The notes under the pieces are model-generated. The model was given only the letters and a program-made list of their open reading frames with translations. It was not told the DNA's origin and did not search any database. This document shows positions 47,374-64,000 of a stretch of DNA of 64,000 nucleotides, piece by piece. The DNA lies in contig CAVWNW010000018.1 of NCBI GenBank assembly GCA_963756425.1, forward strand, positions 23,281 to 87,280, given 5' to 3'. The stretch's first letter is position 1; each line of letters begins with the position of its first letter. Origin of the DNA: an uncultured bacterium (GTDB taxonomy: Bacteria; Actinomycetota; Acidimicrobiia; Acidimicrobiales; VFJN01). Position numbers and translations under genes: made by a program.

Positions 47374-48726
47374 CTACTCGTCGGCGAGCAAACGCTCCCG
47401 GCGCTCGAAGAGCTCCTCGGCCGCCGCCTGGGCCTCGGCCCTCACCGCGTCGGCGTCGAACGTGGCCGGCCGCCCCTGAGCCACCAGCCGCCGGCCGTCG
47501 ACCCAGACGTCGCGCACATCACGACCCGAGGCCGAGAACACGAGGTGGGCGGCGACGTTGAAGTGGCGGCCCTGGAGGACCGGCGTCGTGTGCAGGCCCC
47601 CGAGCCACACCGTCACGAGATCCGCGCGCTTGCCCGGTTCGAGCGAGCCGGTCGTGCCGGCCAGCCCCAGTGCCAGGGCACCATCGATCGTCGCCATGCT
47701 CAGGACGTCCCACGGGTCGCCGCTCGTGGCGTCGAGCGTGGCCACCTTCTCCAGCAGCGCTGCGAACTTGGTCTCCTCGAGCAGGTCGAGGTTGTTGTTC
47801 TCCTTCTCACCGTCGGTCCCCAGGCCCACGACCACGCCGGCGGCGCGCAGGTCCGCGACGCGTGCCGCTCCGGACGCCAGCTTCATGTTGGAGCACGGGC
47901 AGTGCGCCACCGCCGTTCCCGTGCTCGCCAGCAGCTCGATCTCGGGGTCGTCGAGCCAGACGCAGTGGGCGATCACCGTGCGCGGCCCGAGGATCCCCCG
48001 CTGCTCGAACAGCTCGACTGGCCGGAGGCCCCACCGTGCCAGCGACTGCTCGACCTCCCACGTCGTCTCCGACGAGTGGGTGTGCAGCCCGGCATCGAAC
48101 TCCTCGGCCAGCGCCCGCGCCGCCGCGAAGCACGCCTCGGTGCAGTAGAGCAGGTGCTCGAGGCCGACCCAGGCCCGCACCCGCCCCGCGGCGCGGTCGC
48201 TGCCTACGGACTCGAGCAGCGCGCGGTTGGAGTCGATCGACTCGAAGTAGTCGTAGCCGGCCTCGTCGGCGACGTAGGGCACCAGCGTGGCGCGGATGCC
48301 GAGCCGCTCGGCGCTCGCCGCCGACCCCTCCATGAACCGCCACATGTCCATCACCGACGTCGTGCCGGCCAGCAACCCCTCGGCGTAGCAATGCAGTGAG
48401 GCCACCCGGGCGATCTCGGGCGTCAGCGCCCGGTGTGCCGGGTCGACGTGGGTGCGCAGCCAGTCCCACAGGGAGAGCGACTCCGCGGTGCCGCGCAGGA
48501 GCCCGGAATGCATGTGGCAGTTGTGCAGGCCGGGGATGACGGCGTGCCCGGTGGCGTCGACGACTTCGACGCCGTCGGAGGCCGCCCGCGGATCGGCGTC
48601 CACCGCATCGACCGGGCCCACGGCGACGATCGTGTCCCCGTCGATCAGCACCGAGCCGGGATCGTGGACGGCGGCCCCGCCGGTCATGGGCAGGACGATG
48701 CCGTTGCGGATCAGGGTTCTGGCCAC
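47374..48726 (-). CDS. Amidohydrolase-superfamily deaminase/chlorohydrolase-like enzyme (MtaD/SsnA/TrzA-like)
   Basis: From GTG 48726 (VARTLIRNGIVLPM...). Metal ligands in HNCHMH, HTHSSE, and GTDGEKENN with the DG ligand. The upstream part of ORF 47374..49302 is shadow sequence. Confidence 0.85.
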   Translation of the reverse strand: MARTLIRNGIVLPMTGGAAVHDPGSVLIDGDTIVAVGPVDAVDADPRAASDGVEVVDATGHAVIPGLHNCHMHSGLLRGTAESLSLWDWLRTHVDPAHRALTPEIARVASLHCYAEGLLAGTTSVMDMWRFMEGSAASAERLGIRATLVPYVADEAGYDYFESIDSNRALLESVGSDRAAGRVRAWVGLEHLLYCTEACFAAARALAEEFDAGLHTHSSETTWEVEQSLARWGLRPVELFEQRGILGPRTVIAHCVWLDDPEIELLASTGTAVAHCPCSNMKLASGAARVADLRAAGVVVGLGTDGEKENNNLDLLEETKFAALLEKVATLDATSGDPWDVLSMATIDGALALGLAGTTGSLEPGKRADLVTVWLGGLHTTPVLQGRHFNVAAHLVFSASGRDVRDVWVDGRRLVAQGRPATFDADAVRAEAQAAAEELFERRERLLADE

Positions 48727-48810
48727 GGCGCAAGGCAATGACCGCCGGGTCGGCTTGTCAACGTGGCCCCGGAGGCCGGCCGCTCGCCGCGCACCTGTAG
48801 GGTCGCCGCG

Positions 48811-50214
48811 GTGACCGTGGACGCGCCGGAATCCGCACAGGGCCCCGTCGACCTGCTGGTGGCCGGAGCCGACCTCGTCGTCACGATGGACGACGACCGG
48901 CGCGAGCTGCCGGGTGGCTGGGTGGCATGCCACGGCGGGTCGGTCGTGGCGGTGGGCAGCGGGTCGGAACCTGCCCCCGACGCATCCCGGCTGCTGCGGG
49001 CCGACGGCTGCCTGATCACGCCCGGCCTCGTCAACACGCATCACCACATCTACCAGAACCTCACCCGCGCCCACCTGCCCGCCACCAGCAGCTCCCTGTT
49101 CGACTGGCTCACGGCGCTCTACCCGCGCTGGGCGCGGCTCGACGAGGAGGGGGCATATGTGTCGGCGTGGGTGGGACTGGCCGAGCTGGCGATCGGCGGC
49201 TGCACCACGTCGACCGATCACCTCTACGTGCACCCGGCCGGGGCTGGCGACCTGCTCAGCGCGGAGATAGCGGCGGCGCGAGACGTCGGGATGCGCTTCC
49301 ACCCCACCCGCGGATCGATGTCGCTGTCACAGAAGGACGGCGGACTGCCGCCGGATTCGGTGGTGCAGGACGACGACGCGATCCTGGCCGAGTCCGAGGC
49401 CGCGGTCGCTGCGCATCACGACCCGACGCCGGGCGCGATGGTGCGCATCGCGCTGGCGCCGTGCTCGCCGTTCTCGGTGACCACCGACCTGATGCGCCGC
49501 ACCGCCGAGCTGGCGGAGCGCCTCGACGTGCGGCTGCACACGCACCTGGCCGAGGACCCCGACGAGGACGCCTTCTGCCTCGAGACCCACGGCTGCCGGC
49601 CCATCGAGCTGTTCGAGGACGTCGGCTGGGGCTCGGCGCGCTCGTGGGTGGCCCACTGCATCTACCCCAACGAGGCCGAGATCGCCCGCATGGGCGGGTG
49701 GGGCACCGGGGTCGCACATTGTCCCACCTCCAACATGATGATCGGCGGCGGCGGCATCGCCCCGGTGACCGACTTCCGCGCCGCCGGGGTCCCGGTGGGA
49801 CTGGGTTGCGACGGATCGGCGTCCACGGACTCCGCCTCCCTGTGGCTGGAGGCCAGGGGTGCCCTGCTGCTCGGGCGCCAGCGAGGTGGGCCCACGGCGT
49901 TCACGGCCCGGGATGCGCTCGAGGTCGCCACCCGCGGCTCGGCGGCATGCCTGGGCAGGCTGGGCGAGATCGGGGTGCTGGCTCCGGGGGCGTGCGCCGA
50001 CCTGGTGGCGTGGAGGCTGGACGGGCTGACGTTCGCCGGCGCCCTCACCGACCCGGTGGAGGCGCTGCTGCGGTGTGGACCGACGCAGGCGCACCACACG
50101 GTGGTTGCCGGGCGTCCGATCGTGGAGGACGGCGAGCTCCGGGTCGAAGGTGTGGACGGGATGCTCACCCGCCACCGGGCGGCCGCCGCCCGCCTGCAGG
50201 ACGTCGAAGGCTGA
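48811..50214 (+). CDS. Amidohydrolase-superfamily enzyme, 8-oxoguanine deaminase/AtzB-like
   Basis: ITPGLVNTHHHIYQNLTRA...LFDWLTALYPRW, HTHLAEDPDE and GCDGSASTDS. I recall this N-terminal signature from the 8-oxoguanine deaminase group. GTG 48811 chosen; ATG 48763 is possible. Confidence 0.8.
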   Translation: MTVDAPESAQGPVDLLVAGADLVVTMDDDRRELPGGWVACHGGSVVAVGSGSEPAPDASRLLRADGCLITPGLVNTHHHIYQNLTRAHLPATSSSLFDWLTALYPRWARLDEEGAYVSAWVGLAELAIGGCTTSTDHLYVHPAGAGDLLSAEIAAARDVGMRFHPTRGSMSLSQKDGGLPPDSVVQDDDAILAESEAAVAAHHDPTPGAMVRIALAPCSPFSVTTDLMRRTAELAERLDVRLHTHLAEDPDEDAFCLETHGCRPIELFEDVGWGSARSWVAHCIYPNEAEIARMGGWGTGVAHCPTSNMMIGGGGIAPVTDFRAAGVPVGLGCDGSASTDSASLWLEARGALLLGRQRGGPTAFTARDALEVATRGSAACLGRLGEIGVLAPGACADLVAWRLDGLTFAGALTDPVEALLRCGPTQAHHTVVAGRPIVEDGELRVEGVDGMLTRHRAAAARLQDVEG

Positions 50215-50416: not shown

Positions 50417-51853
50417 TCAAGTGCGCTCCACGTAGCGGCCCCAGCCGGGCTCACCCTCGAACCGCCCGTCGCGTGCCACCACCCGACCACGTGACAGCAC
50501 CAGCTCCGGCCAACCCCGGACCACGCGGCCCTCGTAGGGCGAGTGGTCGGTGCGCATGTGCAGTGCAGAGGCGTCGAGCGCCTGTGGCCGCTCGGGGTCC
50601 CACACCACGACGTCAGCGTCGCTGCCCGCACGTAGGCAGCCCTTGCGGGGAAACAGCCCGAACGTGCGGGCGGGCGCCTCGGCGCAGAGCCGCACCCAGT
50701 CGGCGGCGCCGATCCGTCCCGCCCGCACGCCCTGCCACACCAGGGTCATGCGGGTCTCGATGCCGGGCAGCCCGCCGGGGATCTCGGTGAAGTCGGCGAA
50801 GCCGTCGTCGCGGCCCGCCGTCCCGCGGTGCCGGTCGGCCTGCCAGAACGGGCAGTGGTCGGTGGCGACGGTCTGGACCCACCCCCGGGCGAGCCCCTCC
50901 CAGAGCTCCTCACGGTGCCAGGGGTCGCGCAGCGGCGGCGTGCAGACGAAGTTCTCGCCCGCGGGACCATCCAGGACGGCCGCGTCGAGGTGCAGGTACT
51001 GCGGGCAGGTCTCGGCCTCCAGCGCGACGCCCCGTTCCTGGGCGGCCCGCACCTCGGCCAGGCCCGGTGCCGACGAGAGGTGCACGACGTACACGCGGGC
51101 GCCGGCGGCCTCGGCCAGCCGCCCCACCCGGTGCACGGCCTCGGCCTCCAGAACCGCAGGCCGGGTGGCAGCGTGCTCGACGACGCCGGTTCGGCCCTCG
51201 GCCAGCGCCCGACGCCGCAGCGCCTCGATGGCGCCCCCGTTCTCGCAGTGCACCGTGACCAGCCCGCCGTGGCGGGTGGCGGCCCGGAGCACGTCGAACA
51301 CGACGTCGTCGTCGACCTGCAGCAGCCGGGGATAGGCCAGGTAGAGCTTGAAGCTGGTGACGCCCCGCTCGACGCAGTCGGCGACCACGCCTTCGCCCAC
51401 CGCCTCGGTGAACGTCATGTGCAGCCCGTAGTCGACGGCGGCGGGCTCGGCGAGCGCCCGCCAGGTGGCGAGCGCGGCGAGCGGATCCTCGCCCCGGTAG
51501 GCGGTGACGTAGTCGATGACCGTGGTGGTGCCCCCGATCGCGGCTGCCACCGTGCCGCTGGCGAAGTCGTCGGACACGCGCACCGCCCCGACCGGCAAGT
51601 GCAGGTGGGTGTGCGCATCGATGCCGCCCGGCACCACCAGCCGTCCGGAGACGTCGACGACCGCGGTGGCGGGGTCCAACCCGGGCGCCGACGAGAGGTC
51701 GGGGCCCACGGCGGCGATGCGGCCGTCGGTGCCGACGAGCACATCGGCGGGCCGCTCACCGTCGAGGTCGACGACCGTCCCACCGCGCAGCAGCACGCGT
51801 CCCAGCCAAGCAGACGGAGAACCGGCCGGCCCCAACCGACCGGGTGACCCCAT
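50417..51853 (-). CDS. D-hydantoinase / dihydropyrimidinase
   Basis: Cyclic amidohydrolase pattern (VVPGGIDAHTHLHLP...GGTTTVIDY...SFKLYLAY...VHCENG...HLSS...TDHCPF). Confidence 0.9.
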   Translation of the reverse strand: MGSPGRLGPAGSPSAWLGRVLLRGGTVVDLDGERPADVLVGTDGRIAAVGPDLSSAPGLDPATAVVDVSGRLVVPGGIDAHTHLHLPVGAVRVSDDFASGTVAAAIGGTTTVIDYVTAYRGEDPLAALATWRALAEPAAVDYGLHMTFTEAVGEGVVADCVERGVTSFKLYLAYPRLLQVDDDVVFDVLRAATRHGGLVTVHCENGGAIEALRRRALAEGRTGVVEHAATRPAVLEAEAVHRVGRLAEAAGARVYVVHLSSAPGLAEVRAAQERGVALEAETCPQYLHLDAAVLDGPAGENFVCTPPLRDPWHREELWEGLARGWVQTVATDHCPFWQADRHRGTAGRDDGFADFTEIPGGLPGIETRMTLVWQGVRAGRIGAADWVRLCAEAPARTFGLFPRKGCLRAGSDADVVVWDPERPQALDASALHMRTDHSPYEGRVVRGWPELVLSRGRVVARDGRFEGEPGWGRYVERT

Positions 51854-51879: not shown

Positions 51880-51896
51880 TTCAACATTTCGTTGAA
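51880..51896. promoter_or_regulatory. AT-rich palindrome TTCAAC-ATTTC-GTTGAA, 20 nt upstream of the Mo-hydroxylase operon start and inside the divergent hydantoinase promoter region
   Basis: Perfect 6-5-6 inverted repeat. A near-identical copy at 62141-62157 has the same 19-nt spacing to a GTG start. Confidence 0.65.
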
Positions 51897-51915: not shown

Positions 51916-52776
51916 GTGACCGTCCTCGCCCCCACCCGACTCGACGATGCCGTGGCCGCACTGGCCGCCGATCCGTCGCTCACGGTGCTCGCGGGGGGCA
52001 CCGACCTCATGGTCGCCGTGAACTACGGCCAGTACCGCCCCACCGGGGTGCTCAGCCTGCGACGCGTGCCCGAGCTGCACGACTGGCACGTCGAGGGAGA
52101 GGGTTCCGCAGCTCAGGTCGTCCTCGGCGCCGCCACCAGCTACACGACCCTGCTGGACCCGCCGCTCGCCGCCCTGCTGCCCGCGCTGGCCCAGGCATCG
52201 CGGACGGTCGGCAGCCCCCAGATCCGCAACACCGGCACCGTCGGAGGCAACCTCGGCACGGCGTCGCCGGCGGGCGACACGCTCCCGGTGCTGGTGGCGC
52301 TGGACGCCACCGTCGAGCTCGCGTCTGCCTCCGGGCGCCGGAGCATGCCGGTGTCCGAGTTCGTCACCGGGCCCAAGCGGACGGCGCTCGCGCCGGGGGA
52401 GCTGGTGACGGCGGTGCGGGTGCCGGCGGCGCACGGACCCCAGGAGTTCCTCAAGATCGGCGTGCGCAACGCCATGGTCATCGCCGTGGCCAACTGCGCG
52501 CTCGTCCTCGACCTCGGCCGCCGGCGCCTCGCGTGCGCGCTGGGGTCGGTGGGGCCGGTCCCCATCCGCGACCGCGACGCCGAACGATGGGCCGAGGCCC
52601 GCCTCGACTGGGACGGCCGCCCGGCGCTGGACCAGGCACTGGTCGACGACTTCGGGCGCCGGATGGCCGCCGCCAGCCGGCCCATCGACGACCACCGGGC
52701 CACGGCCGCATACCGGCGCCACGCCGTCGAGGTGCTGGCCCGTCGCGCGCTGGGACGGGCCTGGGCGGCGACGTGA
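51916..52776 (+). CDS. Molybdenum hydroxylase FAD-binding subunit (CoxM/XdhB-like)
   Basis: FAD_binding_5 pattern (LAGGTDLMVAVNYG...GSPQIRNTGTVGGNLGTASPAGD). GTG 51916 chosen; the ORF-track start is 51844. Confidence 0.88.
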   Translation: MTVLAPTRLDDAVAALAADPSLTVLAGGTDLMVAVNYGQYRPTGVLSLRRVPELHDWHVEGEGSAAQVVLGAATSYTTLLDPPLAALLPALAQASRTVGSPQIRNTGTVGGNLGTASPAGDTLPVLVALDATVELASASGRRSMPVSEFVTGPKRTALAPGELVTAVRVPAAHGPQEFLKIGVRNAMVIAVANCALVLDLGRRRLACALGSVGPVPIRDRDAERWAEARLDWDGRPALDQALVDDFGRRMAAASRPIDDHRATAAYRRHAVEVLARRALGRAWAAT

Positions 52777-53330
52777 CCGGCACGACGCCCACGTCTGCGG
52801 CGGCACCCGATGCCGACGCCGACGCCGCCTACCAGCTGACGGTGAACGGCGCCGCCCACACCGTCGAGGGAGCCCGGCCCACCGACAGCCTGTTGCACGT
52901 GCTGCGCGACCGGCTCGGGCTGCCCGGCGCCAAGAACGCCTGCGAGCAGGGTGAGTGCGGCTCGTGCTCGGTACTGGTCGACGGGGTGCTCGTGTGCGCG
53001 TGCCTCGAGCTGGCCGAGGCGGCGGTCGGCTGCGAGATCACCACCGTCGAGGGGCTTACGCCGATGGGCGCCGAGCCCGGCGACGCCGCACTCACCGACG
53101 CTGTCCTCACCGATGTCCAGCAGGCGATGATCGAGGCGGGCGGCGTCCAGTGCGGCTTCTGCACGCCCGGTTTCATCGTCGCCATCCACGACCTGCTGGA
53201 CCGGGTGCCCGAGCCTGGGCCGCTCGAGGTCCGCGAGGCGTTGGCCGGCAACCTCTGCCGCTGCACCGGCTACGGGCGCATCCTCGCCGCCATCGAGCGG
53301 GTGGTGGCGGTGCGGGGGAACGGGCGATGA
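52773..53330 (+). CDS. Molybdenum hydroxylase [2Fe-2S] small subunit
   Basis: CEQGECGSCSV and QCGFCTPG...CRCTGY cluster motifs. GTG 52773 overlaps the upstream stop (GTGA). Confidence 0.9.
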   Translation: MTGTTPTSAAAPDADADAAYQLTVNGAAHTVEGARPTDSLLHVLRDRLGLPGAKNACEQGECGSCSVLVDGVLVCACLELAEAAVGCEITTVEGLTPMGAEPGDAALTDAVLTDVQQAMIEAGGVQCGFCTPGFIVAIHDLLDRVPEPGPLEVREALAGNLCRCTGYGRILAAIERVVAVRGNGR

Positions 53331-56523: not shown

Positions 56524-56560
56524 GCTGTTCAACCCGCGGCCCAACGGCCACGATGGCCGG

Positions 56561-57887: not shown

Positions 57888-58802
57888 GTGAGCCGGGTCG
57901 TCACCGTCGCCGCCGCCCAGCTCGGGCCGATCCAGCGTGACCACACCCGTGCCGACACCGTCGAGCGACTGCTGGCGCACCTGCGGGGCGCGGCCGAGCG
58001 CGGGGCGGACCTGGTCGTGTTTCCGGAGCTGGCGCTCACCACCTTCTTCCCCCGCTGGTGGTACGAGGACGGCTCCCCCGAGCTGGCCGCCTGGTACGAG
58101 ACCGAGCTGCCGGGCGCCGACACGAAGCCGCTGTGGGACGAGGCGCGCCGGCTCGGGGTCGGCTTCTGCCTGGGGTTCGCCGAGGAGACGCCCGACGGCC
58201 ACCGGTTCAACACGTCGGTGCTCGTGGGGGCCGACGGCGCCGAGATCGGCCGCTATCGCAAGATCCACCTGCCCGGCCATCGCGAGCACGAGCCGTGGCG
58301 GGCGTTCCAGCACCTCGAGAAGCGCTACTTCGAGACCGGGGACCTCGGGTTCCCCGTGTACGCGGCGTTCGGCGGGACCGTCGGCATGCTCATCTGCAAC
58401 GACCGGCGTTGGCCGGAGGCCTACCGCATGCTCGGCCTGCAGGGCGTCGAGCTCGTGTGCATCGGCTACAACACGCCGGTCCACAACCCGCCGGCACCCG
58501 AGCACGACCGCTTCGGCGACTTCCACAATCGGCTGGTCATGCAGGCCGGCGCGTATCAGAACGGCACGTTCGTGGTGGCCACGGCGAAGGCGGGCACCGA
58601 GGAGGGCGTGGACCACATCGGCGGGTCGTGCGTCATCCACCCGTCCGGGGCCGTCATCGCGCAGTGCACGGGGCTAGGCGACGAGCTCGCCGTGGCCGCC
58701 TGCGACCTCGACGACTGCACGTCCTACAAGACCACGGTCTTCGACTTCGCCGCCCACCGCCGCCCCGACCAGTACGGCCGGCTGACCGAGACCGAGCCGT
58801 AG
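57888..58802 (+). CDS. N-carbamoyl-D-amino-acid hydrolase (nitrilase superfamily)
   Basis: Extended identity with the D-carbamoylase sequence I remember from Agrobacterium (FPELALTTFFPRW...RFNTS.L....G.I.G.YRKIHLPGH.E.....FQHLEKRYFE.GDLGFPVY...MLICNDRRWPEA.R..GL.G.E....GYNTP.HNPP.P). The Glu-Lys-Cys triad is present. Confidence 0.92.
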   Translation: MSRVVTVAAAQLGPIQRDHTRADTVERLLAHLRGAAERGADLVVFPELALTTFFPRWWYEDGSPELAAWYETELPGADTKPLWDEARRLGVGFCLGFAEETPDGHRFNTSVLVGADGAEIGRYRKIHLPGHREHEPWRAFQHLEKRYFETGDLGFPVYAAFGGTVGMLICNDRRWPEAYRMLGLQGVELVCIGYNTPVHNPPAPEHDRFGDFHNRLVMQAGAYQNGTFVVATAKAGTEEGVDHIGGSCVIHPSGAVIAQCTGLGDELAVAACDLDDCTSYKTTVFDFAAHRRPDQYGRLTETEP

Positions 58803-58824
58803 CCGTAGCACCTACGCCAACCCC

Positions 58825-58874
58825 GAACTTGCCGCAGATAGGGCTGCCATGACGTCGGTTACTGCGGCAAGTTC
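58825..58874. repeat. 13-bp-arm inverted repeat GAACTTGCCGCAG...CTGCGGCAAGTTC between convergent genes (variant of the palindromic family; likely bidirectional terminator)
   Basis: Perfect arms with a 24-nt loop. It shares the TGCCGC/GCGGCA termini with the copies at 10210, 20383 and 25889. Confidence 0.6.
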
Positions 58875-58890
58875 GATCAGTGGGGAGCCG

Positions 58891-60042
58891 TCAGCGGGGC
58901 GGGCGACCGACGATCCGCTCGAAGTTGACCGGGTCGGTCACGCCCTCGGTGACCAGTAGCAGGACGGTGGCCTCGCCCGGGATCGGCAGCTCGGCACCGT
59001 GCTCGGCACGCAGGGCCAGGAGCCCGCCCAGGGCCGCGGCCCCCGTCTCGCCCGCGTCGAGGCCGGCGACGGCCAGCGACCGGATGGCGTCCCGGCAGCG
59101 GTCGTCGTCGATGGTCACGAACGCGTCGAACCCCGCCGCCACCGTGGGGAGGGCCAGCATCGACGCGAGCCCGCAGTTGAGCCCGGCCATGATCGACCGG
59201 TGGGGCCCGGGCACCTCCACGATGTGGCCAGCCCGTACCCCCTCCGCGACGCACGCCGCGGAGTCGGGCTCGACACCCACGAGCACCGGCCCCTCCCCCG
59301 GTTCGAGCCCCGCCCGGAGCCAGGAGGCGGCCGCCGCCCCCAGGGCCCCCACCCCCAACGGGACCATGACCAGGTCGGGTGCCGGCGCGTCGAGCGCCGC
59401 GAGCTGGTCCTCGAGCTCGGCGAAGATCGTGGCATAGCCCTCGATCACCCGGCGCGGCGGATCCTCGTACCCGGGCCACGAGGTATCGGAGATGACCAGG
59501 TCGCGTTCGCCCGCCATCGCGGCCGACTCGGCCACGGCGTCGTCGTAGGTGCCCGGCACGACCGTCACCTCGGCACCCTCGGCGGCGATGCCGCCGATGC
59601 GGGCGGGGGCGGTGCCGTCGGGCACCAGGATGGTCGCGGAGAGTCCGAGGAGCTTGGCCATCCGCGCCACCGCCCGGCCGTGGTTGCCGTCGGTGGCGGC
59701 CACGAGCCGCAGCGGTCCCAGGTACTGGGCCACGATCGCCGCGAGGTCGGGGAGCGTGTCCCACTGTGGGTCGGCCGCCCCGCCGGCCGCCGCCAGCCGG
59801 TCGCACAGGACCCGGTACGTCGCCCACGAGGCGCCGAGGATCTTGAAGGCCGGCAGGCCCATGCGGCTCGACTCGTCCTTGACCAGCACCCGGGCCACGG
59901 CGGCGGCCTCGGCCAAGGCCGGCATGTCGCGTACCGGCGTGGGCCCGTACCCCGGGAGCCGGCGGTGGAAGGCGGTGACCTCGGGGCCCGGGCGTGCGTC
60001 GGCCGGCAGCGGCTTGGTCTCGTGGTTCACGAGCAGCGACAT
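58891..60042 (-). CDS. dpaL: Diaminopropionate ammonia-lyase (PLP-dependent)
   Basis: YGPTP...VLVKDESSRMGLPAFKILGASWA, ATDGNHGRAVA, W.GYED.P..VIEGYAT and IMAGLNCG match the YgeX/DpaL pattern. Confidence 0.88.
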   Translation of the reverse strand: MSLLVNHETKPLPADARPGPEVTAFHRRLPGYGPTPVRDMPALAEAAAVARVLVKDESSRMGLPAFKILGASWATYRVLCDRLAAAGGAADPQWDTLPDLAAIVAQYLGPLRLVAATDGNHGRAVARMAKLLGLSATILVPDGTAPARIGGIAAEGAEVTVVPGTYDDAVAESAAMAGERDLVISDTSWPGYEDPPRRVIEGYATIFAELEDQLAALDAPAPDLVMVPLGVGALGAAAASWLRAGLEPGEGPVLVGVEPDSAACVAEGVRAGHIVEVPGPHRSIMAGLNCGLASMLALPTVAAGFDAFVTIDDDRCRDAIRSLAVAGLDAGETGAAALGGLLALRAEHGAELPIPGEATVLLLVTEGVTDPVNFERIVGRPPR

Positions 60043-60118: not shown

Positions 60119-61339
60119 GTGAGCGACGGGACCCGTGGCCCCCTCAGGCAGTGGCTGTGGAGCCCACCGCGAGCCCACGGCGAGGTCATCGCCGACCGCA
60201 CGGTGAGCTCCCTGGAGCTGTTCTACGACCTGGTGTACGTGGCGGTCATCAGCCAGGCGGCGCACCACCTTGCCGAGCACGTCACGGCTCGTGGGTTCGT
60301 GGAGTTCACGATCGTCTTCGGGTTGATCTGGACTGCGTGGGTCAACGGGTCCCTCTATCTCGAGCTCCACGGCCGCGAGGACGGCCGGACTCGCAGCGCC
60401 GTCTTCCTCCAGATGGGCGTCCTGGTCCTGCTCGCCGTGTTCACCGCCGATGCTGCAGGCGACAGCGGCACCGCCTTCGCGTTGGTCTACGCCGGGTTCC
60501 TCGCCGTCATGACGTGGCTCTGGTACAGCGTCCGACGCCAGGACCGCTTCGGCCACCCCGAGTTCGTGGCCCCTGCCGGCCGCTACGTGCTCGGCATGGC
60601 GGTGGCGGTGCTGGTGATCGTCGCCAGCGCGTTCCTCCCCGACGGGCCGCGGCTCGTCGTGTGGGCGGGCTTCTGCATCGCCTGGCTCGTGGGCATCGCC
60701 CTGATCGGCCGGTTGGCGGTGGTCCACGACGGCCTGCCGCCCACCGACTCGCTGGTTGAGCGGTTCGGGCTGTTCACGATCATCGTCCTCGGCGAGGTGA
60801 TCTTCGGCGTGGTCGACGGCCTGTCGTCGGCCGACCGTGACGGGCTCGTCATCGTGACCGGGCTGGTCGCCCTCGGGATCGGCTTCGGCTTCTGGTGGAT
60901 CTACTTCGACCTGGTCGGGCGGCGGCGGCCCCGGAACGACGGCGGGCCACTCGTCACGTGGATGCTGAGCCACCTACCGATCACGCTGTCAATCGCCGCC
61001 GCCGGGGCCGCGATGGTCAGCCTGATCAGCCACGCCGCTGACGCGAGGACACCGGCGAGTACAGGCTGGCTTCTCGCCGGTTCCGTCGCCCTTGGCCTGC
61101 TCGCGCTGTCCTTCGCCGAGCAGACGCTCGCCGACGCGGATCGCTTCGCGGTCGTCTACAGACCCCTCAGGATCGCCGGCGCCGCGGCCACGGCGCTCGC
61201 CGTCGGCTGGGCCCGGCCTGCGCCCTGGCTCCTGGCCCTCCTGCTCGTGCTGATCCTGTCGGTGCTCTGGGGCTTCGCGGTCAGCCGCTTCCTGCAAGGC
61301 GGCGTCTGGACGAGGCCGGAGTCGTCCCGCACCGACTGA
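60119..61339 (+). CDS. ltrA: Low-temperature-requirement protein A (LtrA)-family membrane protein
   Basis: From GTG 60119. Has SSLELFYDLVYVAVISQ and multiple TM helices. Confidence 0.8.
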   Translation: MSDGTRGPLRQWLWSPPRAHGEVIADRTVSSLELFYDLVYVAVISQAAHHLAEHVTARGFVEFTIVFGLIWTAWVNGSLYLELHGREDGRTRSAVFLQMGVLVLLAVFTADAAGDSGTAFALVYAGFLAVMTWLWYSVRRQDRFGHPEFVAPAGRYVLGMAVAVLVIVASAFLPDGPRLVVWAGFCIAWLVGIALIGRLAVVHDGLPPTDSLVERFGLFTIIVLGEVIFGVVDGLSSADRDGLVIVTGLVALGIGFGFWWIYFDLVGRRRPRNDGGPLVTWMLSHLPITLSIAAAGAAMVSLISHAADARTPASTGWLLAGSVALGLLALSFAEQTLADADRFAVVYRPLRIAGAAATALAVGWARPAPWLLALLLVLILSVLWGFAVSRFLQGGVWTRPESSRTD

Positions 61340-61474: not shown

Positions 61475-61891
61475 ATGAAGCTCGTGACCGAACCTCGTGG
61501 CGCGATCGATCTCATTGCCACGCCCGTCCACCTCAGCCTCGGGTCGCGCGCGCTGGCCGTCGACGGCTTCGACTGGGACGCGGCGGTGCTGGAGGCCTAC
61601 GCGGCGGCGGTCGCCGAGGACGGCGCGGAGGGCCGGATCGTCATGGTCTTCGAGGGCAGCCGATCATGGGACATCTGGGAGCGCCACCCCGCCGGCGACG
61701 AGGTCGTGATCTGCCTCTCAGGTCGGATGACGGTCATCCGCGAGGTCGACGGCCAGCCCGACCCTGTAGGGCTCGGTCCGTGCCAGGCGATGATCAACCC
61801 CGCCGGCGTGTGGCACACGGCGGACGTCCACGAACCGGTCCGGTTCATGACGATCACGCCGGGCCTGGGAACCGAGCATCGGGCACGCTGA
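61475..61891 (+). CDS. Cupin-domain protein
   Basis: From ATG 61475. Small beta-barrel pattern (WERHPAGDEVVICLSGRMTV...NPAGVWHTADV). Confidence 0.65.
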   Translation: MKLVTEPRGAIDLIATPVHLSLGSRALAVDGFDWDAAVLEAYAAAVAEDGAEGRIVMVFEGSRSWDIWERHPAGDEVVICLSGRMTVIREVDGQPDPVGLGPCQAMINPAGVWHTADVHEPVRFMTITPGLGTEHRAR

Positions 61892-62140: not shown

Positions 62141-62157
62141 TTCAACATTTTGTTGAA
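62141..62157. promoter_or_regulatory. Second copy of the AT-rich palindrome: TTCAAC-ATTTT-GTTGAA, 20 nt upstream of the fused Mo-hydroxylase gene
   Basis: It shares 16 of 17 positions with 51880-51896, has the same spacing to a GTG start, and the 19-nt spacer is also partly conserved. Confidence 0.65.
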
Positions 62158-62176
62158 CTCTGTCAGTCTGGACGGC

Positions 62177-64000
62177 GTGGCGGTGTCCTTCATTCTCAAC
62201 GGCGGCGAGGTCGAGGTCGGCGACCATCCCCACCTCCTCTCGGCCCTGCGGGAGGAGCTCGACGTCACGAGCCCAAAGGACGGCTGCTCACCGTCGGGCC
62301 AATGCGGCTGCTGCACGGTGCTCATCGACGGCAAGCCCATGATCGCCTGCTCGCTGGGCCTCGAGCGCGTGGCCGGCCGGGCGGTCACCACGCTCGAGGG
62401 GATCGATCCGGCCGAGCGCGACCGCCTGGCCGGCGCGTTTTCCGCCACGGGCGCGCTCCAGTGCGGTTTCTGCACACCCGGCATCGTCGTGCGCGCCAAG
62501 TACCTGCTCGACAAGGAGGGGCCGGCCCTCACCCGCGACAAGGCGGCCCGCCACCTCGGGGGCCACCTGTGCCGGTGCACCGGGTACCACTCCATCCTCG
62601 ACGCGGTCGAGCTGCTGGCGTCGGGGGCGGAGACCCCGGTGTCGCTGCCGGCCGGCAACGGCAATGCCAACGGCCACGACCGAGACGGCCGGCCGGGGGG
62701 CATCGGCAGTGACAGCGCCAAGTACCAGGCCACGGAGATGGCCCTCGGCGATAAGCCCTACATCGACGACCTTCGGGTGCCCGGCATGCTCCACGCCGCC
62801 GTGGTGCTGTCCGAGCACGCCCGCGCCGACATCCTGGCGATCGACATCACCGCCGCGGCCGCGACGCCCGGCGTGGTCCGGGTGTTCACGGCCGCCGACG
62901 TGCCCGGCGACCTCCGGATCGGCCTGATCCACCGCGACTGGCCCGTCTTCATCCCCGTCGGCGGGCGCACCGCCTATACGGGCGACGTGCTGGCCCTGGT
63001 GGTGGCGGGAGATCGGGCCACCGCCCGGGCCGCCGCAGAACGGGTGGCCGTGGAGTACCGACCCTTGCCCCCGTTCACCGATCCGCTGCGGGCGGTCGAC
63101 TCGACCGAGCCCGCCGTGTGGCGGGTGGGCGAGGCCGACGCCCCCAACGTCCTGTCCCGCACCGCCTACGCCCGTGGCCATGCCGATATCGACGCCGCCC
63201 TGGGCGACAGCGCCCACGTCGTCCACGAGGTGTTCCAGACCCAGCGCATCGAGCACGCGTTCCTCGAGCCCGAGGCCACCCTCGCGGTCCCCCTCGACGA
63301 CGGCCGGCTGGAGGTGTTCTCGGGCGGCCAGGGGGTGTGGGACGACCGGCGCCAGATCGCCGACGTGCTCGGCGTGGACGAGGACCGGGTCCTTGTCCAC
63401 CTGGTTGCCAACGGCGGCGCCTTCGGCGGCAAGGAGGACTGCGGCAACCAGACCCAGACCGCGCTCGCCGCCCACGTGCTGGGACGACCGGTGAAGTGCG
63501 TGTTCAGCCGGGAGGAATCGCTGCACGTCCACCCCAAACGCCATCCCGTGCGGATCGAAGCGTGGGCCGGGTGCGACGCCGACGGCCGGCTCACGGCGCT
63601 GAAGGCCCGCATCGTGGGCGACTCCGGCCCGTACGCCTCCGTGGGCATGAAGGTGTTGGAGCGCGCTGCGGGCCACGCCGGCGGCCCGTACTCCTGGCCG
63701 GCCATCGACGTCGACGCCGTCGCCGTCCGCACCAACAACCCGGTGTGCGGCGCCTTCCGGGGCTTCGGCGCCAACCAGGCCCAGTTCGCGAGCGAGGGGG
63801 TGATCGACCGGCTGGCGGCGGCCACCGGCATCGATCCATGGGAGATGCGGGCCCGGAATGCGGTCACACCCGGCTGCACCTGGGGCCCCGGCCAGGTCAT
63901 GGACGACGGCTGCCTCGGCGCCCGGGACTGCCTCGACGCCCTGAAGCCCCATTACGACGACGCCGTGGCCGCCGGCAAGGCGGTCGGCCTCGGGCTCGGC
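62177..64000 (+). CDS. Fused [2Fe-2S] + molybdopterin-binding hydroxylase (XdhD / aldehyde oxidoreductase-like), 3' end beyond window
   Basis: Not in the ORF track because it has no stop inside the window. My translation from GTG 62177 reads VAVSFILNGGEVEVG...GCSPSGQCGCCTV...QCGFCTPG...CRCTGY, then a hammerhead domain, NGGAFGGKED and GAFRGFG. The frame is open for 608 codons to base 64000. Confidence 0.88.
   Translation, partial: MAVSFILNGGEVEVGDHPHLLSALREELDVTSPKDGCSPSGQCGCCTVLIDGKPMIACSLGLERVAGRAVTTLEGIDPAERDRLAGAFSATGALQCGFCTPGIVVRAKYLLDKEGPALTRDKAARHLGGHLCRCTGYHSILDAVELLASGAETPVSLPAGNGNANGHDRDGRPGGIGSDSAKYQATEMALGDKPYIDDLRVPGMLHAAVVLSEHARADILAIDITAAAATPGVVRVFTAADVPGDLRIGLIHRDWPVFIPVGGRTAYTGDVLALVVAGDRATARAAAERVAVEYRPLPPFTDPLRAVDSTEPAVWRVGEADAPNVLSRTAYARGHADIDAALGDSAHVVHEVFQTQRIEHAFLEPEATLAVPLDDGRLEVFSGGQGVWDDRRQIADVLGVDEDRVLVHLVANGGAFGGKEDCGNQTQTALAAHVLGRPVKCVFSREESLHVHPKRHPVRIEAWAGCDADGRLTALKARIVGDSGPYASVGMKVLERAAGHAGGPYSWPAIDVDAVAVRTNNPVCGAFRGFGANQAQFASEGVIDRLAAATGIDPWEMRARNAVTPGCTWGPGQVMDDGCLGARDCLDALKPHYDDAVAAGKAVGLGLG

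What the first reader, a model, noticed from the sequence alone, without database searches (positions are those of the whole stretch)
47374..64000. Composite N-heterocycle (purine/hydantoin) catabolic island resembling a hydrolytic version of the E. coli ygeV-ygfT locus
Seen in sequence, within about 16.6 kb:
- two divergently arranged amidohydrolase-superfamily deaminase-like genes, one with the 8-oxoguanine-deaminase-like PGLVNTHHH.YQ.LTR signature
- a D-hydantoinase
- a three-subunit FAD/2Fe-2S/MoCo hydroxylase
- an AlkA glycosylase
- an M20 AmaB/AllC-type amidohydrolase
- a nitrilase-type D-carbamoylase
- diaminopropionate ammonia-lyase
- a second, FeS-MoCo fused hydroxylase

Established knowledge: the E. 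coli ygeV-ygfT region co-locates xdhABC, xdhD (an FeS+Mo fusion), ssnA (amidohydrolase), hyuA (D-hydantoinase), ygeY (M20 peptidase) and ygeX (DpaL), together with ygeW, yqeA and ygfK. That locus has been linked genetically to anaerobic urate/purine breakdown, and its enzymology is only partly resolved.

Inference: this window holds family-level counterparts of six of those functions. The carbamoyltransferase, carbamate kinase and YgfK-like parts are missing. Two hydrolytic decarbamoylases are present instead, and no canonical uricase or allantoinase genes are visible. This would fit an oxygen-tolerant, ATP-non-conserving variant that funnels ring-opened purines or hydantoins to 2,3-diaminopropionate and then to pyruvate plus ammonia. 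An alternative reading is a D-hydantoin/dihydropyrimidine utilisation cluster that sits next to xanthine dehydrogenases only by coincidence.
Basis: partly seen in the sequence, partly recalled or inferred. Interest (0 to 1): 0.72.

Follow-up and report, generated by a model that had tools for sequence, protein, structure and literature searches.

The report
Soil-bacterium variant of reductive urate breakdown
This gene cluster from a soil actinobacterium looks like a rebuilt version of the urate-degrading pathway recently discovered in anaerobic gut bacteria, with several enzymes swapped for unrelated ones, which suggests the pathway also works outside the gut and gives the industrial enzyme D-carbamoylase a possible natural job.

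Summary
The cluster starts earlier than stated (46639) and continues past the window end.

Comparison with 118 related loci shows most of a variant of the reductive urate (2,8-dioxopurine) pathway, whose enzymology was worked out in E. coli and Clostridia in 2025.

In the window:
- feeder enzymes: a three-subunit xanthine dehydrogenase, an 8-oxoguanine deaminase and an unassigned deaminase
- the entry enzyme: an FeS-Mo fusion resembling Clostridial XdhAC, cut by the window end
- the lower half: D-hydantoinase, D-carbamoylase, an AmaB-type M20 amidase and diaminopropionate ammonia-lyase.

The two middle steps are absent from the window. In 14 of 14 close relatives they directly follow the FeS-Mo gene: a shortened SsnA, then an F420-type luciferase-like reductase. 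Across metagenome loci, that reductase and YgfK homologs sit next to mini-SsnA in a mutually exclusive way (27 versus 21, never both).

A palindrome, TTCAAC-N5-GTTGAA, lies 19 nt upstream of two operons here and of three in relatives.

The SsnA assignment is wrong, and oxygen tolerance is untested. No enzyme has been assayed. I rate this a new variant of a known kind.

The parts
46639..47085 (+). g0: HTH_22-domain transcriptional regulator, the candidate cluster regulator
   Evidence: Pfam HTH_22, 79.9 bits. Homologs at 48-76% identity sit next to the pathway genes in L011, L016, L017, L077, L078, L084, L103, L113 and L117.
47092..47325 (+). g0b: small Thiamine_BP (YkoF/MTH1187-like) protein, role unknown
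   Evidence: Pfam PF01910, 40.5 bits. It co-travels with HTH_22 in L011, L016, L017, L077, L078 and L117.
47374..48726 (-). g1: amidohydrolase-superfamily deaminase of the MTA/SAH-deaminase clade. Substrate unassigned, not SsnA. Presumed purine feeder.
   Evidence: No NCBIfam cutoff is passed (best 323 against 522; SsnA 191 against 444). Best PDB hit 4f0r, 218 bits. E. coli SsnA matches at only 27% identity, E 2e-21.
48811..50214 (+). g2: 8-oxoguanine deaminase family (8-oxoguanine to urate). Start codon uncertain: 48763 or 48811.
   Evidence: NF006055, 603 against 532. PDB 3hpa 431 bits and 7ww2 402 bits. Homologs recur in L057, L062, L066, L071, L103, L115 and L117.
50417..51853 (-). g3: D-hydantoinase/dihydropyrimidinase, the HyuA counterpart. 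Proposed to open ureidomethylhydantoin to 2,3-diureidopropionate.
   Evidence: TIGR02033, 481 against 393. 40.6% identity to E. coli HyuA, E 9e-101. It is the last gene of the seven-gene operon in L103.
51880..51896 (.). Operator-like palindrome 1, TTCAACATTTCGTTGAA, in the 62-nt divergent g3|g4 intergenic region
   Evidence: One of only two exact matches in the 64-kb window. 0.21 matches are expected by chance even with up to 2 mismatches. It ends 19 nt upstream of the g4 GTG at 51916. It is conserved at the same position in L002, L005, L007, L010 and L011.
51916..52776 (+). g4: FAD-binding subunit of the three-subunit xanthine dehydrogenase
   Evidence: XdhB-like, 183 bits, below the 310 cutoff. 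Operon with g5 and g6, with 4-nt start/stop overlaps.
52773..53330 (+). g5: 2Fe-2S subunit of the xanthine dehydrogenase
   Evidence: pucE/XdhC-like, 146 bits, below the 254 cutoff. 44.5% identity to E. coli XdhC.
53327..55645 (+). g6: molybdopterin subunit of the xanthine dehydrogenase (hypoxanthine/xanthine to urate)
   Evidence: pucD TIGR03196, 841 against 784, passes. CO-dehydrogenase and aldehyde-oxidoreductase models score far lower (194-278 bits).
55630..56523 (+). g7: AlkA-like HhH-GPD glycosylase. A lineage-specific insertion in the XDH operon, not part of the conserved core.
   Evidence: AlkA_N 110 bits plus HhH-GPD. E. coli AlkA E 3e-29, with the Asp aligned to D238 retained. Present only in the closest relatives L002-L009 and L041 and absent from all more distant loci.
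56528..56544 (.). Eroded third operator copy, TTCAACCCGCGGCCCAA, 16 nt upstream of g8
   Evidence: Read directly from the sequence. Intact copies occupy the same position, 17 nt upstream of g8, in L001, L003, L004, L006, L008 and L009.
56561..57802 (+). g8: M20 amidase of the hydantoinase/carbamoylase (AmaB/beta-ureidopropionase) family. Proposed to cleave the 3-ureido group to give diaminopropionate.
   Evidence: NF006769 462 against 452 and TIGR01879 407 against 204. PDB N-carbamoyl-L-amino-acid hydrolase 321 bits and N-carbamoyl-beta-alanine amidohydrolase 319 bits. No similarity to E. coli YgeY. Forms an operon with DpaL and DCase in Cupriavidus and Rhizobium.
57888..58802 (+). g9: N-carbamoyl-D-amino-acid hydrolase (nitrilase-fold D-carbamoylase). 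Proposed to cleave the 2-ureido group of D-2,3-diureidopropionate.
   Evidence: 379 bits, E 1e-112, full length, to solved DCases. CN_hydrolase 189 bits. Homologs at 57-64% identity sit beside the DOPDH-like gene in L016, L084, L088, L090, L103, L109 and L117.
58824..58875 (.). Perfect 14-nt inverted repeat between the convergent g9 and g10 genes, probably a shared terminator hairpin
   Evidence: Arms 58824-58837 and 58862-58875, 100% complementary, 24 nt between the arms.
58891..60042 (-). g10: 2,3-diaminopropionate ammonia-lyase (DpaL/YgeX counterpart), giving pyruvate plus ammonia
   Evidence: NF006058, 296 against 276. PDB DpaL E 6e-51 against threonine dehydratases at E ~1e-13. The K77, D120 and D189 motifs are conserved in the alignment. 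32% identity to E. coli YgeX.
60119..61339 (+). g11: LtrA-family membrane protein, a lineage-specific insertion between DpaL and g13
   Evidence: Pfam LtrA, 204 bits. Present only in L001, L002, L006, L008 and L041. DpaL and g13 are directly divergent in L004, L005, L007, L009, L013 and L025.
61475..61891 (+). g12: small cupin_2 protein, a lineage-specific insertion
   Evidence: Pfam Cupin_2, 28 bits. Found only in L041 among the related loci.
62141..62157 (.). Operator-like palindrome 2, TTCAACATTTTGTTGAA, 19 nt upstream of g13
   Evidence: The second of only two exact matches in the window. Conserved 19-26 nt upstream of the g13 ortholog in L002, L003, L004, L007, L009, L010, L013, L041, L047, L049, L050 and L051.
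62177..64000 (+). g13: [2Fe-2S]+molybdopterin fusion without a FAD domain, cut by the window end (607 of about 867 aa). Proposed urate 6-dehydroxylase (2,8-dioxopurine dehydrogenase-like). First gene of the module g13 -> mini-SsnA -> F420-type LLM reductase, which continues beyond the window in relatives.
   Evidence: TIGR03311, 591 bits over 580 of 848 profile positions. The full-length ortholog L002:6009-8612 scores 808 against 830, the XdhD model 194 and the aldehyde oxidoreductase model 442. Mini-SsnA lies immediately downstream in 14 of 14 close relatives, and LLM follows in 11 of 11.

Best explanation
The region is a purine/urate catabolic cluster of a soil Acidimicrobiales bacterium. 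It encodes most of a variant of the reductive 2,8-dioxopurine pathway.

Proposed flow:
1. Feeders make urate. The xanthine dehydrogenase g4-g6 oxidises hypoxanthine and xanthine. g2 deaminates 8-oxoguanine. g1 deaminates some other purine.
2. The FeS-Mo fusion g13 removes the C6 oxygen of urate, giving 2,8-dioxopurine.
3. An F420H2-dependent luciferase-like reductase dearomatises 2,8-dioxopurine.
4. A shortened SsnA opens the pyrimidine ring, giving ureidomethylhydantoin.
5. The D-hydantoinase g3 opens the hydantoin ring, giving D-2,3-diureidopropionate.
6. The D-carbamoylase g9 hydrolyses the 2-ureido group.
7. The M20 amidase g8 hydrolyses the 3-ureido group, giving 2,3-diaminopropionate.
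8. DpaL (g10) converts that to pyruvate and ammonia.

Both decarbamoylations are hydrolytic, so no ATP is recovered through carbamoyl phosphate. A shared palindromic operator, probably bound by the HTH_22 regulator g0, co-regulates the units.

Shown: the family assignments, the synteny, the reductase displacement and the operator.
Inferred: the substrates, the reaction order, and that the window's own genome carries the genes for steps 3 and 4 just past position 64000. No enzyme activity was measured.
For: - Family assignments pass curated cutoffs for g2, g3, g6, g8 and g10. g9 is about 60% identical to solved D-carbamoylases.
- The characterised pathway is XdhD/XdhAC -> YgfK/UacX -> SsnA -> HyuA -> YgeW+YqeA or UacY -> YgeY -> YgeX (PMC12507026; PMC12990295; bioRxiv 10.1101/2025.04.24.650524).
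- In relatives, g13 is followed by an amidohydrolase whose best family by far is SsnA (250 bits; the next family scores 74). It matches E. coli SsnA at E 1e-48 to 1e-56 and keeps SsnA-specific motifs. Next comes a PF00296 enzyme whose ten solved relatives are all F420-dependent.
- This order holds in 14 of 14 close relatives, and LLM follows in 11 of 11.
- Among 55 metagenome loci with enough flank, mini-SsnA has LLM adjacent in 27 and a YgfK homolog adjacent in 21, never both. Five of the other seven carry one of the two within 2-7 kb.
- The YgfK homologs of L016 and L017 are 37-39% identical to the E. coli YgfK N-terminal domain (E 1e-86 to 1e-90).
- L103 carries M20 -> DCase -> DOPDH-like -> mini-SsnA -> LLM -> DpaL -> hydantoinase as one tight operon. 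HTH_22, the XDH and the 8-oxoG deaminase lie divergently beside it. L066, L084, L090 and L117 are similar.
- DpaL -> M20 -> DCase is a three-gene operon in Cupriavidus necator N-1, Cupriavidus sp. KK10 and Rhizobium sp. ACO-34A. This ties both decarbamoylases to diaminopropionate.
- Stereochemistry is consistent: a D-hydantoinase, a D-specific carbamoylase, and the proposed R (D) configuration of the intermediates.
- Other recurrent neighbours are purine-related: a Bmp-type ABC transporter and adenine and adenosine deaminases.
- The palindrome TTCAAC-N5-GTTGAA occurs exactly twice in 64 kb, 19 nt upstream of g4 and of g13. 24 of 26 sites in relatives lie 17-26 nt upstream of g13, g4 or g8.
Against: - The two central steps (mini-SsnA and LLM) are not in the window. 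Their presence in this genome is inferred from relatives that are at most about 92% identical.
- Mini-SsnA (250 against 444) and the g13 ortholog (808 against 830) fall below their curated cutoffs.
- g13 lacks the XdhD E606 insertion. The proposed DOPDH specificity positions could not be mapped reliably.
- Clostridial DOPDH needs selenium and works only anaerobically. No YqeB/YqeC genes occur in any LLM-type locus, and the electron donor for g13 is unknown.
- Most mini-SsnA loci have no hydantoinase within 10 kb. The ring-opening chemistry may therefore differ from that of E. coli.
- The lower module occurs without the upper module in Cupriavidus, Rhizobium and Deinococcus. It can therefore serve other substrates.
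- F420 use is inferred from homology only. No F420 biosynthesis gene is in the window.
Confidence: 0.68

Rival explanations
1. The pathway has the same architecture but a different physiological substrate. It would degrade another N-heterocycle or ureido compound that yields diaminopropionate. Candidates are oxidised purine lesions (8-oxoguanine and its hydantoin products), 2- or 8-hydroxypurines entering oxidatively through g13, pterins, or plant albizziin and hydantoins. Urate itself would not be the main input.
For: - An 8-oxoguanine deaminase recurs in these clusters.
- An AlkA-like glycosylase is embedded in the operon in the closest relatives.
- Clostridial DOPDH is reversible.
- The lower module exists alone in plant-associated Rhizobium and in Cupriavidus.
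- g13 falls just below the TIGR03311 cutoff.
- No urate transporter lies in the window. A UacT-like permease was seen only in L088.
Against: - 8-oxoguanine deaminase makes urate, and the XDH (which passes the pucD model) also makes urate. Both feeders therefore converge on urate.
- The AlkA-like gene is absent from all but the closest relatives.
- The upper module matches, step for step, the one shown to act on urate.
Confidence: 0.17
2. The cluster is a generic D-hydantoin/dihydropyrimidine utilisation system (D-hydantoinase, D-carbamoylase, L-carbamoylase or beta-ureidopropionase). It would lie next to xanthine dehydrogenases and DpaL by coincidence.
For: - g3 passes the dihydropyrimidinase model, g9 is a classical DCase, and g8 resembles beta-ureidopropionases.
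- Such pairs exist elsewhere without purine genes, for example the Roseomonas DCase context.
Against: - There is no dihydropyrimidine dehydrogenase, hydantoin racemase or hydantoin permease among the annotated genes.
- DCase and M20 recur directly beside the DOPDH-like gene, mini-SsnA, the reductase and DpaL in many independent loci, most of which lack a hydantoinase.
- DpaL, M20 and DCase are organised as one operon in three cultured genera.
- The same operator precedes the XDH/hydantoinase, M20-DCase and g13 units.
Confidence: 0.07
3. The pathway in this lineage is a decaying remnant or a mosaic. The genes would be neighbours through shared ancestry among close relatives but no longer form a working route, for example because the window's genome lacks the middle genes.
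For: - L011 shows fragmented, frameshift-like matches for g13, mini-SsnA and LLM.
- The third operator copy is eroded in the window.
- LtrA, cupin and AlkA insertions have broken up the ancestral arrangement.
Against: - All 15 window genes have intact reading frames with strong GC3 coding signal.
- Two operator copies are perfect.
- 14 of 14 close relatives keep the module intact.
Confidence: 0.05

Closest known systems
E. coli ygeW-xdhD uricolytic cluster (reductive urate / 2,8-dioxopurine pathway; Li et al. 2025, PMC12507026)
   Same: - The overall logic is the same: a Mo enzyme, a dearomatising reductase, SsnA-type ring opening, a D-hydantoinase, two ureido cleavages, then DpaL to pyruvate.
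- HyuA and g3 are 40.6% identical, and YgeX and g10 32%.
- Both clusters sit next to a conventional XDH and purine deaminases.
   Different: - No YgfK: an F420-type LLM stands in its place in relatives.
- SsnA is shortened by about 50 N-terminal residues and scores below the cutoff.
- No YgeW or YqeA, so there is no ATP recovery through carbamoyl phosphate. A nitrilase-fold DCase replaces them.
- YgeY is replaced by an unrelated M20 subfamily.
- The Mo enzyme is not XdhD-type, and there is no dedicated YgfM FAD subunit.
- No YqeB, YqeC or MocA nearby.
- An HTH_22 regulator replaces the sigma-54 activator YgeV.
Clostridial variant (C. sporogenes XdhAC/DOPDH; C. difficile UacX and UacY)
   Same: - g13 has the FeS+MoCo, no-FAD architecture described for XdhAC. 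It aligns end to end with TIGR03311, which NCBI names the selenium-dependent xanthine dehydrogenase model (808 against 830).
- C. difficile also uses a hydrolytic enzyme (UacY) for the 2-ureido group, on a D-configured substrate.
   Different: - UacY is an amidohydrolase-fold D-aminoacylase homolog, whereas g9 is a nitrilase-fold DCase.
- UacX is PydA-like, whereas the reductase here is an LLM.
- Selenium-trait genes accompany the gut clusters and are absent here.
- I could not obtain the XdhAC sequence, so it was not compared directly.
[quoted passage not shown]
   Same: A PF00296 enzyme occupies the YgfK/UacX slot next to SsnA. The authors propose it as an F420-dependent yanthine reductase.
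   Different: - That variant was reported for Chloroflexota, in one sentence and a network figure. No displacement statistics, lower-module composition or regulation were given.
- Here the host is Acidimicrobiales.
- The SsnA homolog here would probably fall outside the IPR017700/TIGR03314 set they used, since it scores 234 against 455.
- The downstream enzymes here are DCase plus an AmaB-type M20.
Industrial D-hydantoinase / D-carbamoylase pairs (Agrobacterium, Pseudomonas, Ensifer)
   Same: g9 is about 60% identical to the solved enzymes over their full length. g3 is a D-hydantoinase.
   Different: [quoted passage not shown] Here the genes are embedded in a purine pathway that ends in DpaL.

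Membership tests
Reductive urate (2,8-dioxopurine) pathway cluster | Mo-dependent urate 6-dehydroxylase (XdhD-YgfM or XdhAC/DOPDH) | tested here: inconclusive
   g13 is an FeS-Mo fusion, and TIGR03311 is its best family. The window fragment scores 591 bits over 580 of 848 positions. The full-length ortholog scores 808 against an 830 cutoff. The XdhD model TIGR03313 scores 194 against 1102. It lacks the XdhD E606 insertion. Genomic position supports the role: the gene lies directly upstream of mini-SsnA in 36 of 40 loci.
Reductive urate (2,8-dioxopurine) pathway cluster | Dearomatising reductase YgfK or UacX | tested here: not met
   The window and the LLM-type loci have no YgfK homolog. A PF00296 F420-type LLM occupies the slot in relatives, and it is mutually exclusive with YgfK homologs (27 versus 21, none with both). 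UacX (PF01180) was not searched for, since I had no UacX sequence; no gene in the window or downstream of g13 in L002 matched that family in the Pfam scans. The LLM is a functional analog by inference, not a family member.
Reductive urate (2,8-dioxopurine) pathway cluster | SsnA ring-opening amidohydrolase | tested here: inconclusive
   The window has none: g1 scores 191 and g2 121 against 444. In relatives, the gene directly after g13 has SsnA as its best family (250 against 444; next family 74). It matches E. coli SsnA at E 1e-48 to 1e-56, keeps the SsnA motifs, and lacks about 50 N-terminal residues.
Reductive urate (2,8-dioxopurine) pathway cluster | HyuA D-hydantoinase | tested here: met
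   g3 scores 481 against 393 on TIGR02033. It is 40.6% identical to E. coli HyuA, E 9e-101.
Reductive urate (2,8-dioxopurine) pathway cluster | 2-ureido cleavage by YgeW plus YqeA (phosphorolytic) or UacY (hydrolytic) | tested here: not met
   YgeW and YqeA give no hit in the window. UacY was not searched for directly, but no gene in the window resembles an amidohydrolase-fold D-aminoacylase. The nitrilase-fold DCase g9 is proposed as the replacement. YgeW plus YqeA do occur in other LLM-type loci (L057-L071).
Reductive urate (2,8-dioxopurine) pathway cluster | YgeY M20 peptidase for the second ureido group | tested here: not met
   E. coli YgeY has no BLAST hit to g8 at E<1e-3. g8 belongs to the hydantoinase/carbamoylase M20 subfamily.
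Reductive urate (2,8-dioxopurine) pathway cluster | YgeX diaminopropionate ammonia-lyase | tested here: met
   g10 scores 296 against 276 on NF006058. Solved DpaL matches at E 6e-51 against about 1e-13 for threonine dehydratases, and the catalytic Lys and Asp motifs are conserved.
Reductive urate (2,8-dioxopurine) pathway cluster | Linked selenium-cofactor trait genes (YqeB, YqeC) | tested here: not met
   tblastn over 1.38 Mb of loci plus the window finds YqeB/YqeC only in YgfK/XdhD-type loci (L017, L069, L107, L116, and partly L018). LLM-type loci have none. Presence elsewhere in the genome cannot be tested with these tools.
Xanthine dehydrogenase, PucCDE/XdhABC type | Mo subunit of the purine-hydroxylating clade, with separate FAD and 2Fe-2S subunits | tested here: met
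   g6 scores 841 against 784 on pucD TIGR03196. The CO-dehydrogenase, aldehyde oxidoreductase and 4-hydroxybenzoyl-CoA reductase models score 194-402. g4 and g5 have the right families but fall below the equivalog cutoffs.
8-oxoguanine deaminase | Passes the curated equivalog model and is close to the solved enzyme | tested here: met
   g2 scores 603 against 532 on NF006055. PDB 7ww2 '8-oxoguanine deaminase' gives 402 bits.
N-carbamoyl-D-amino-acid hydrolase (DCase) | Full-length, high-identity match to the characterised enzymes of the nitrilase superfamily | tested here: met
   g9 gives 365-379 bits to 11 solved DCase sequences and 84 bits to the next family, N-carbamoylputrescine amidase.
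D-hydantoin utilisation (hyu) system | Hydantoin racemase and hydantoin permease accompanying the hydantoinase and carbamoylase | tested here: not met
   No racemase or NCS1 permease is among the 15 annotated genes of the region.

The most novel reading that the evidence does not exclude
An oxygen-compatible, selenium-independent, F420-driven version of the 'anaerobic' reductive urate pathway is widespread in soil, peat and sediment bacteria.

In this reading:
- An F420H2-dependent luciferase-like enzyme replaces the Fe-S flavoenzyme YgfK.
- A nitrilase-fold D-carbamoylase and an AmaB-type amidase replace YgeW, YqeA and YgeY. D-carbamoylase would then have a natural substrate, D-2,3-diureidopropionate.
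- The co-located xanthine dehydrogenase and the FAD-less DOPDH-like enzyme are redox-coupled. Xanthine would then be converted to 2,8-dioxopurine with no net electron input.
Probability: 0.35. Interest if true: 0.8.

Novelty: new variant of a known kind. Interest (0 to 1): 0.64.

Why it matters
- **Ecological reach.** The reductive urate pathway was described in 2025 as a speciality of obligate or facultative anaerobes, mainly gut bacteria. This cluster, together with at least 533 related metagenome stretches, indicates that a rebuilt version is common in environmental bacteria, including Actinomycetota.
- **D-carbamoylase.** The physiological role of D-carbamoylases, used industrially for decades, is still called unclear in a 2026 paper. 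This cluster gives a concrete hypothesis that can be tested in culturable bacteria.
- **Engineering parts.** The variant offers an Fe-S-free reductase and irreversible hydrolases. These could serve in urate-lowering strains or enzyme cascades.
- **Regulation.** The conserved operator defines a regulon that can be followed experimentally.

Tried and rejected
- An exact-protein look-up of the window's DpaL found no record, so the source contig could not be extended. None of the 80 metagenome loci is the window's own contig; the best, L041, is 90-92% identical at nucleotide level.
- I treated g1 or g2 as the SsnA counterpart and rejected both on HMM scores and BLAST.
- I treated g8 as a YgeY ortholog and rejected it.
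- I tested the XdhD-type assignment of g13 through E606. The residue lies in an insertion that g13 lacks.
- I tried to map the DOPDH signature positions (bovine F1009 and A1078) without a bovine or Clostridial reference sequence. g13 has 'TTGS' and g6 has 'SSAS' at the second motif, which does not discriminate. I report this as inconclusive.
- The sigma-70 promoter and intrinsic terminator scans were uninformative in this GC-rich DNA.
- A k-mer search across promoter regions found only GC-rich noise. The operator was first seen by eye and then tested statistically.
- An unbiased neighbour clustering looked for an alternative ring-opening enzyme in loci without a hydantoinase and found none.
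- The rest of the window was scanned for uricase, allantoin-route or F420-biosynthesis genes. None was found.
- Deinococcus plasmid DpaL contexts show only the lower module.
- I did not use the large protein homology searches or structure prediction. Context evidence already decided the main questions.

Full report
**1. The observation**

The window is about 72% GC, so plain ORF lists are swamped by spurious frames. Codon-position GC analysis resolves 15 intact genes between 46.6 kb and the window end.
- g1 (47374-48726, -) and g2 (~48811-50214, +) are divergent amidohydrolases.
- g3 (50417-51853, -) is a D-hydantoinase.
- g4, g5 and g6 (51916-55645, +) are the FAD, 2Fe-2S and Mo subunits of a hydroxylase, with 4-nt start/stop overlaps.
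- g7 (55630-56523, +) is AlkA-like and overlaps the end of g6 by 16 nt.
- g8 (56561-57802, +) is an M20 amidase.
- g9 (57888-58802, +) is a nitrilase-fold hydrolase.
- g10 (58891-60042, -) is DpaL-like.
- g13 (62177-64000, +) is an FeS-Mo fusion cut by the window end.

It also missed an HTH_22 regulator (g0, 46639-47085) and a small Thiamine_BP-like protein (g0b) just upstream. Genes further upstream are unrelated housekeeping. The window contains no uricase, allantoinase or F420-biosynthesis gene.

**2. Subfamily assignments**

These curated NCBIfam cutoffs are passed:
- g2: 8-oxoguanine deaminase, 603 against 532
- g3: D-hydantoinase, 481 against 393
- g6: pucD xanthine dehydrogenase, 841 against 784
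- g8: allantoate-amidohydrolase/hydantase subfamily, 462 against 452
- g10: diaminopropionate ammonia-lyase, 296 against 276.

Comparison with solved structures adds the following.
- g9 is about 60% identical over its full length to N-carbamoyl-D-amino-acid hydrolases (379 bits).
- g8 groups with L-carbamoylases and N-carbamoyl-beta-alanine amidohydrolase.
- g10 matches DpaL at E 6e-51, against about 1e-13 for threonine dehydratases, and keeps the catalytic Lys and Asp motifs.
- g2 matches 8-oxoguanine deaminase.
- g1 is a generic member of the MTA/SAH-deaminase clade. It passes no cutoff and is not SsnA (191 against 444).
- g13's best model is TIGR03311. The E. coli XdhD model scores far lower.

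The Mo enzymes do not cluster with CO dehydrogenases or aldehyde oxidoreductases, and DpaL does not fall among the dehydratases.

**3. What is now known about the reference locus**

Two 2025 studies resolved it.
- Urate is reduced to 2,8-dioxopurine by XdhD-YgfM in E. coli or by XdhAC/DOPDH in C. sporogenes.
- The ring is dearomatised by YgfK, or by UacX in C. difficile.
- SsnA opens it to ureidomethylhydantoin.
- HyuA opens that to 2,3-diureidopropionate.
- One ureido group is removed by YgeW (with YqeA) or hydrolytically by UacY.
- The other is removed by YgeY, giving diaminopropionate.
- YgeX splits diaminopropionate to pyruvate and ammonia.

**4. Relatives supply the missing middle of the pathway**

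A scan of species-representative genomes with the DpaL protein returned 38 loci. The closest are soil Acidimicrobiales MAGs, with DpaL 83-91% identical.

The window has no SsnA, YgfK or LLM gene. In relatives, the full-length g13 ortholog (867 aa; TIGR03311 808 against 830) is followed directly by two genes.
- The first is a 341-aa amidohydrolase whose best family by a wide margin is SsnA (250 bits; the next family scores 74). It matches E. coli SsnA at E 1e-48 to 1e-56, keeps the metal ligands and SsnA-specific motifs, and lacks about 50 N-terminal residues.
- The second is a PF00296 oxidoreductase. All ten of its solved relatives are F420-dependent, and the closest is Mer.

This order holds in 14 of 14 relatives with a g13 at least 78% identical and enough sequence. 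LLM follows in 11 of 11. The nearest locus, L041, is 90-92% identical to the window at nucleotide level and colinear from g6 through g13 into these genes.

**5. The reductase step shows non-orthologous displacement**

In L016 (an alphaproteobacterium) and L017, the slot next to mini-SsnA holds a protein of about 600 aa. It is 37-39% identical to the N-terminal substrate domain of E. coli YgfK (E 1e-86 to 1e-90) and also has the Fer4 segment.

A metagenome scan with a mini-SsnA alignment confirmed at least 533 stretches, and 80 loci were kept. Among the 55 loci with enough 3' flank:
- LLM is adjacent in 27
- a YgfK homolog is adjacent in 21
- none has both
- five of the other seven carry one of the two within 2-7 kb.

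A g13-type gene lies directly upstream of mini-SsnA in 36 of 40 loci. This is the strongest evidence that the LLM enzyme performs the YgfK step, and that g13 begins the same pathway.

**6. The whole gene set recurs as a unit**

L103 carries M20 -> DCase -> DOPDH-like -> mini-SsnA -> LLM -> DpaL -> hydantoinase as one co-directional operon. The gaps between matched segments run from a few to a few tens of nucleotides. HTH_22, the three XDH subunits and the 8-oxoguanine deaminase lie divergently beside it. Identity to the window proteins is 49-72%.

L066, L084, L090 and L117 hold the same set in other orders. Other LLM-type loci use YgeW plus YqeA in place of the hydrolases (L057-L071). L016 and L017 use two CN-hydrolases. 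The decarbamoylation module is therefore interchangeable.

Other recurrent neighbours are a Bmp-type ABC transporter and adenine and adenosine deaminases.

The AlkA-like gene, LtrA and the cupin occur only in the closest relatives. I treat them as insertions and not as core.

**7. The lower module stands on its own**

DpaL -> M20 (56-61% identical to g8) -> DCase (55-65% identical to g9) is a three-gene operon on plasmids of Rhizobium sp. ACO-34A, Cupriavidus sp. KK10 and C. necator N-1. This ties both decarbamoylases to the production of diaminopropionate.

It also fits the chemistry. DCase acts on N-carbamoyl-D-alpha-amino acids, which corresponds to the 2-ureido group. The g8 family acts on beta-ureido acids, which corresponds to the 3-ureido group. 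The D preference of both the hydantoinase and DCase agrees with the proposed R configuration of the intermediates.

The same finding is a caution. The lower module can work without the upper one, and in Deinococcus DpaL pairs only with M20 enzymes. Alone, it does not prove purine breakdown.

A 2026 paper still calls the physiological role of carbamoylase unclear.

**8. Regulation**

The palindrome TTCAAC-N5-GTTGAA occurs exactly twice in the 64-kb window. About 0.21 matches are expected by chance even with up to two mismatches, and none of 100 shuffles reached the observed count.
- One copy lies in the g3|g4 divergent region and ends 19 nt upstream of g4.
- The other ends 19 nt upstream of g13.
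- A third, eroded copy sits 16 nt upstream of g8.

In relatives, 24 of 26 exact or one-mismatch sites across 1.3 Mb lie 17-26 nt upstream of g13, g4 or g8. This is in-silico evidence that the XDH/hydantoinase, M20-DCase and g13/DpaL units form one regulon. The HTH_22 protein is the candidate regulator, based only on co-occurrence.

**9. What remains uncertain**

- The middle genes are inferred for this genome and not seen in it.
- Mini-SsnA and g13 score below their curated cutoffs.
- g13 lacks the XdhD E606 insertion, and the proposed DOPDH specificity residues could not be mapped.
- The electron donor of g13 is unknown. No selenium-trait genes accompany LLM-type loci. That fits a selenium-independent enzyme but does not prove one.
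- Most mini-SsnA loci lack a nearby hydantoinase.
- F420 use rests on homology.

**10. Verdict**

The cluster is a new variant of a known kind of system. The combination has not been described: mini-SsnA, an F420-type LLM, a nitrilase-fold DCase, an AmaB-type M20 and an HTH_22/operator regulon, in soil Acidimicrobiales. Two of its ideas have precedents: an F420 reductase in Chloroflexota and hydrolytic ureido cleavage by UacY.

Noticed in passing
window 58824-58875: A perfect 14-nt inverted repeat (CGAACTTGCCGCAG / CTGCGGCAAGTTCG, 24 nt between the arms) lies between the convergent g9 and g10 genes. It is probably a shared bidirectional terminator. It has no T-run, so the terminator scan did not report it.
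   Followed up: partly
window 47092-47325; also L011, L016, L017, L077, L078, L117: A 77-aa Thiamine_BP (YkoF/MTH1187-like) protein travels with the HTH_22 regulator next to the pathway genes in phylogenetically distant loci. Its role is unknown. It might bind a ligand, such as a pathway intermediate.
   Followed up: partly
L113:323-1843 and 10 other YgfK-type loci: A roughly 506-aa protein that looks PLP-dependent (PALP-like, judged by eye and not scanned against Pfam) recurs in mini-SsnA loci of the YgfK type. It could be an alternative to DpaL or act on a different end product.
   Followed up: no
L002:2367-3788 (-) and orthologs in L005, L009, L010, L011, L040-L042, L047, L050: A fusion of an AAA_33 kinase-like domain (weak similarity to polynucleotide kinase) with a second F420-type LLM domain (passes TIGR03560) follows the LLM reductase in the Acidimicrobiales relatives. 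Its function is unknown.
   Followed up: partly
L011:5100-9900: In this relative, the matches to g13, mini-SsnA and LLM are broken into several pieces in different frames. This suggests either pseudogenes or assembly and frameshift errors.
   Followed up: no
L016 (whole 10.3-kb contig), L066, L084, L090, L117: Most mini-SsnA loci have no hydantoinase within 10 kb, although the E. coli pathway needs HyuA after SsnA. Either the hydantoinase is encoded elsewhere or the shortened SsnA gives a different ring-opening product.
   Followed up: partly
L120, L124, L125 (Rhizobium sp. ACO-34A pRACO34Ab; Cupriavidus sp. KK10 p1; C. necator N-1 pBB1): DpaL -> M20 -> D-carbamoylase is a conserved three-gene operon on megaplasmids of cultured aerobes. 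In Rhizobium it lies beside a dihydropyrimidinase, an ABC transporter and a three-component Mo-hydroxylase. These strains are tractable models for finding the natural substrate of D-carbamoylase.
   Followed up: partly
window 55630-55645: The AlkA-like gene starts 16 nt inside the end of the XDH Mo-subunit gene, which suggests translational coupling of a DNA-glycosylase homolog to a purine-oxidising enzyme. It keeps the Asp aligned to the catalytic D238 of AlkA but occurs only in the closest relatives.
   Followed up: partly
window 23034-26864 and 27935-28786: A GlcD/GlcE/GlcF-like FAD/Fe-S oxidase trio and a biopterin-dependent aromatic amino-acid hydroxylase lie upstream. They appear unrelated to the cluster.
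   Followed up: no
L088:1786-3138: An NCS2 permease 27% identical to the E. coli urate and xanthine transporters UacT and XanQ lies beside an LLM-type cluster. It is the only urate-type transporter seen in any locus. L017 and 12 other loci carry a Bmp-type ABC transporter.
   Followed up: no
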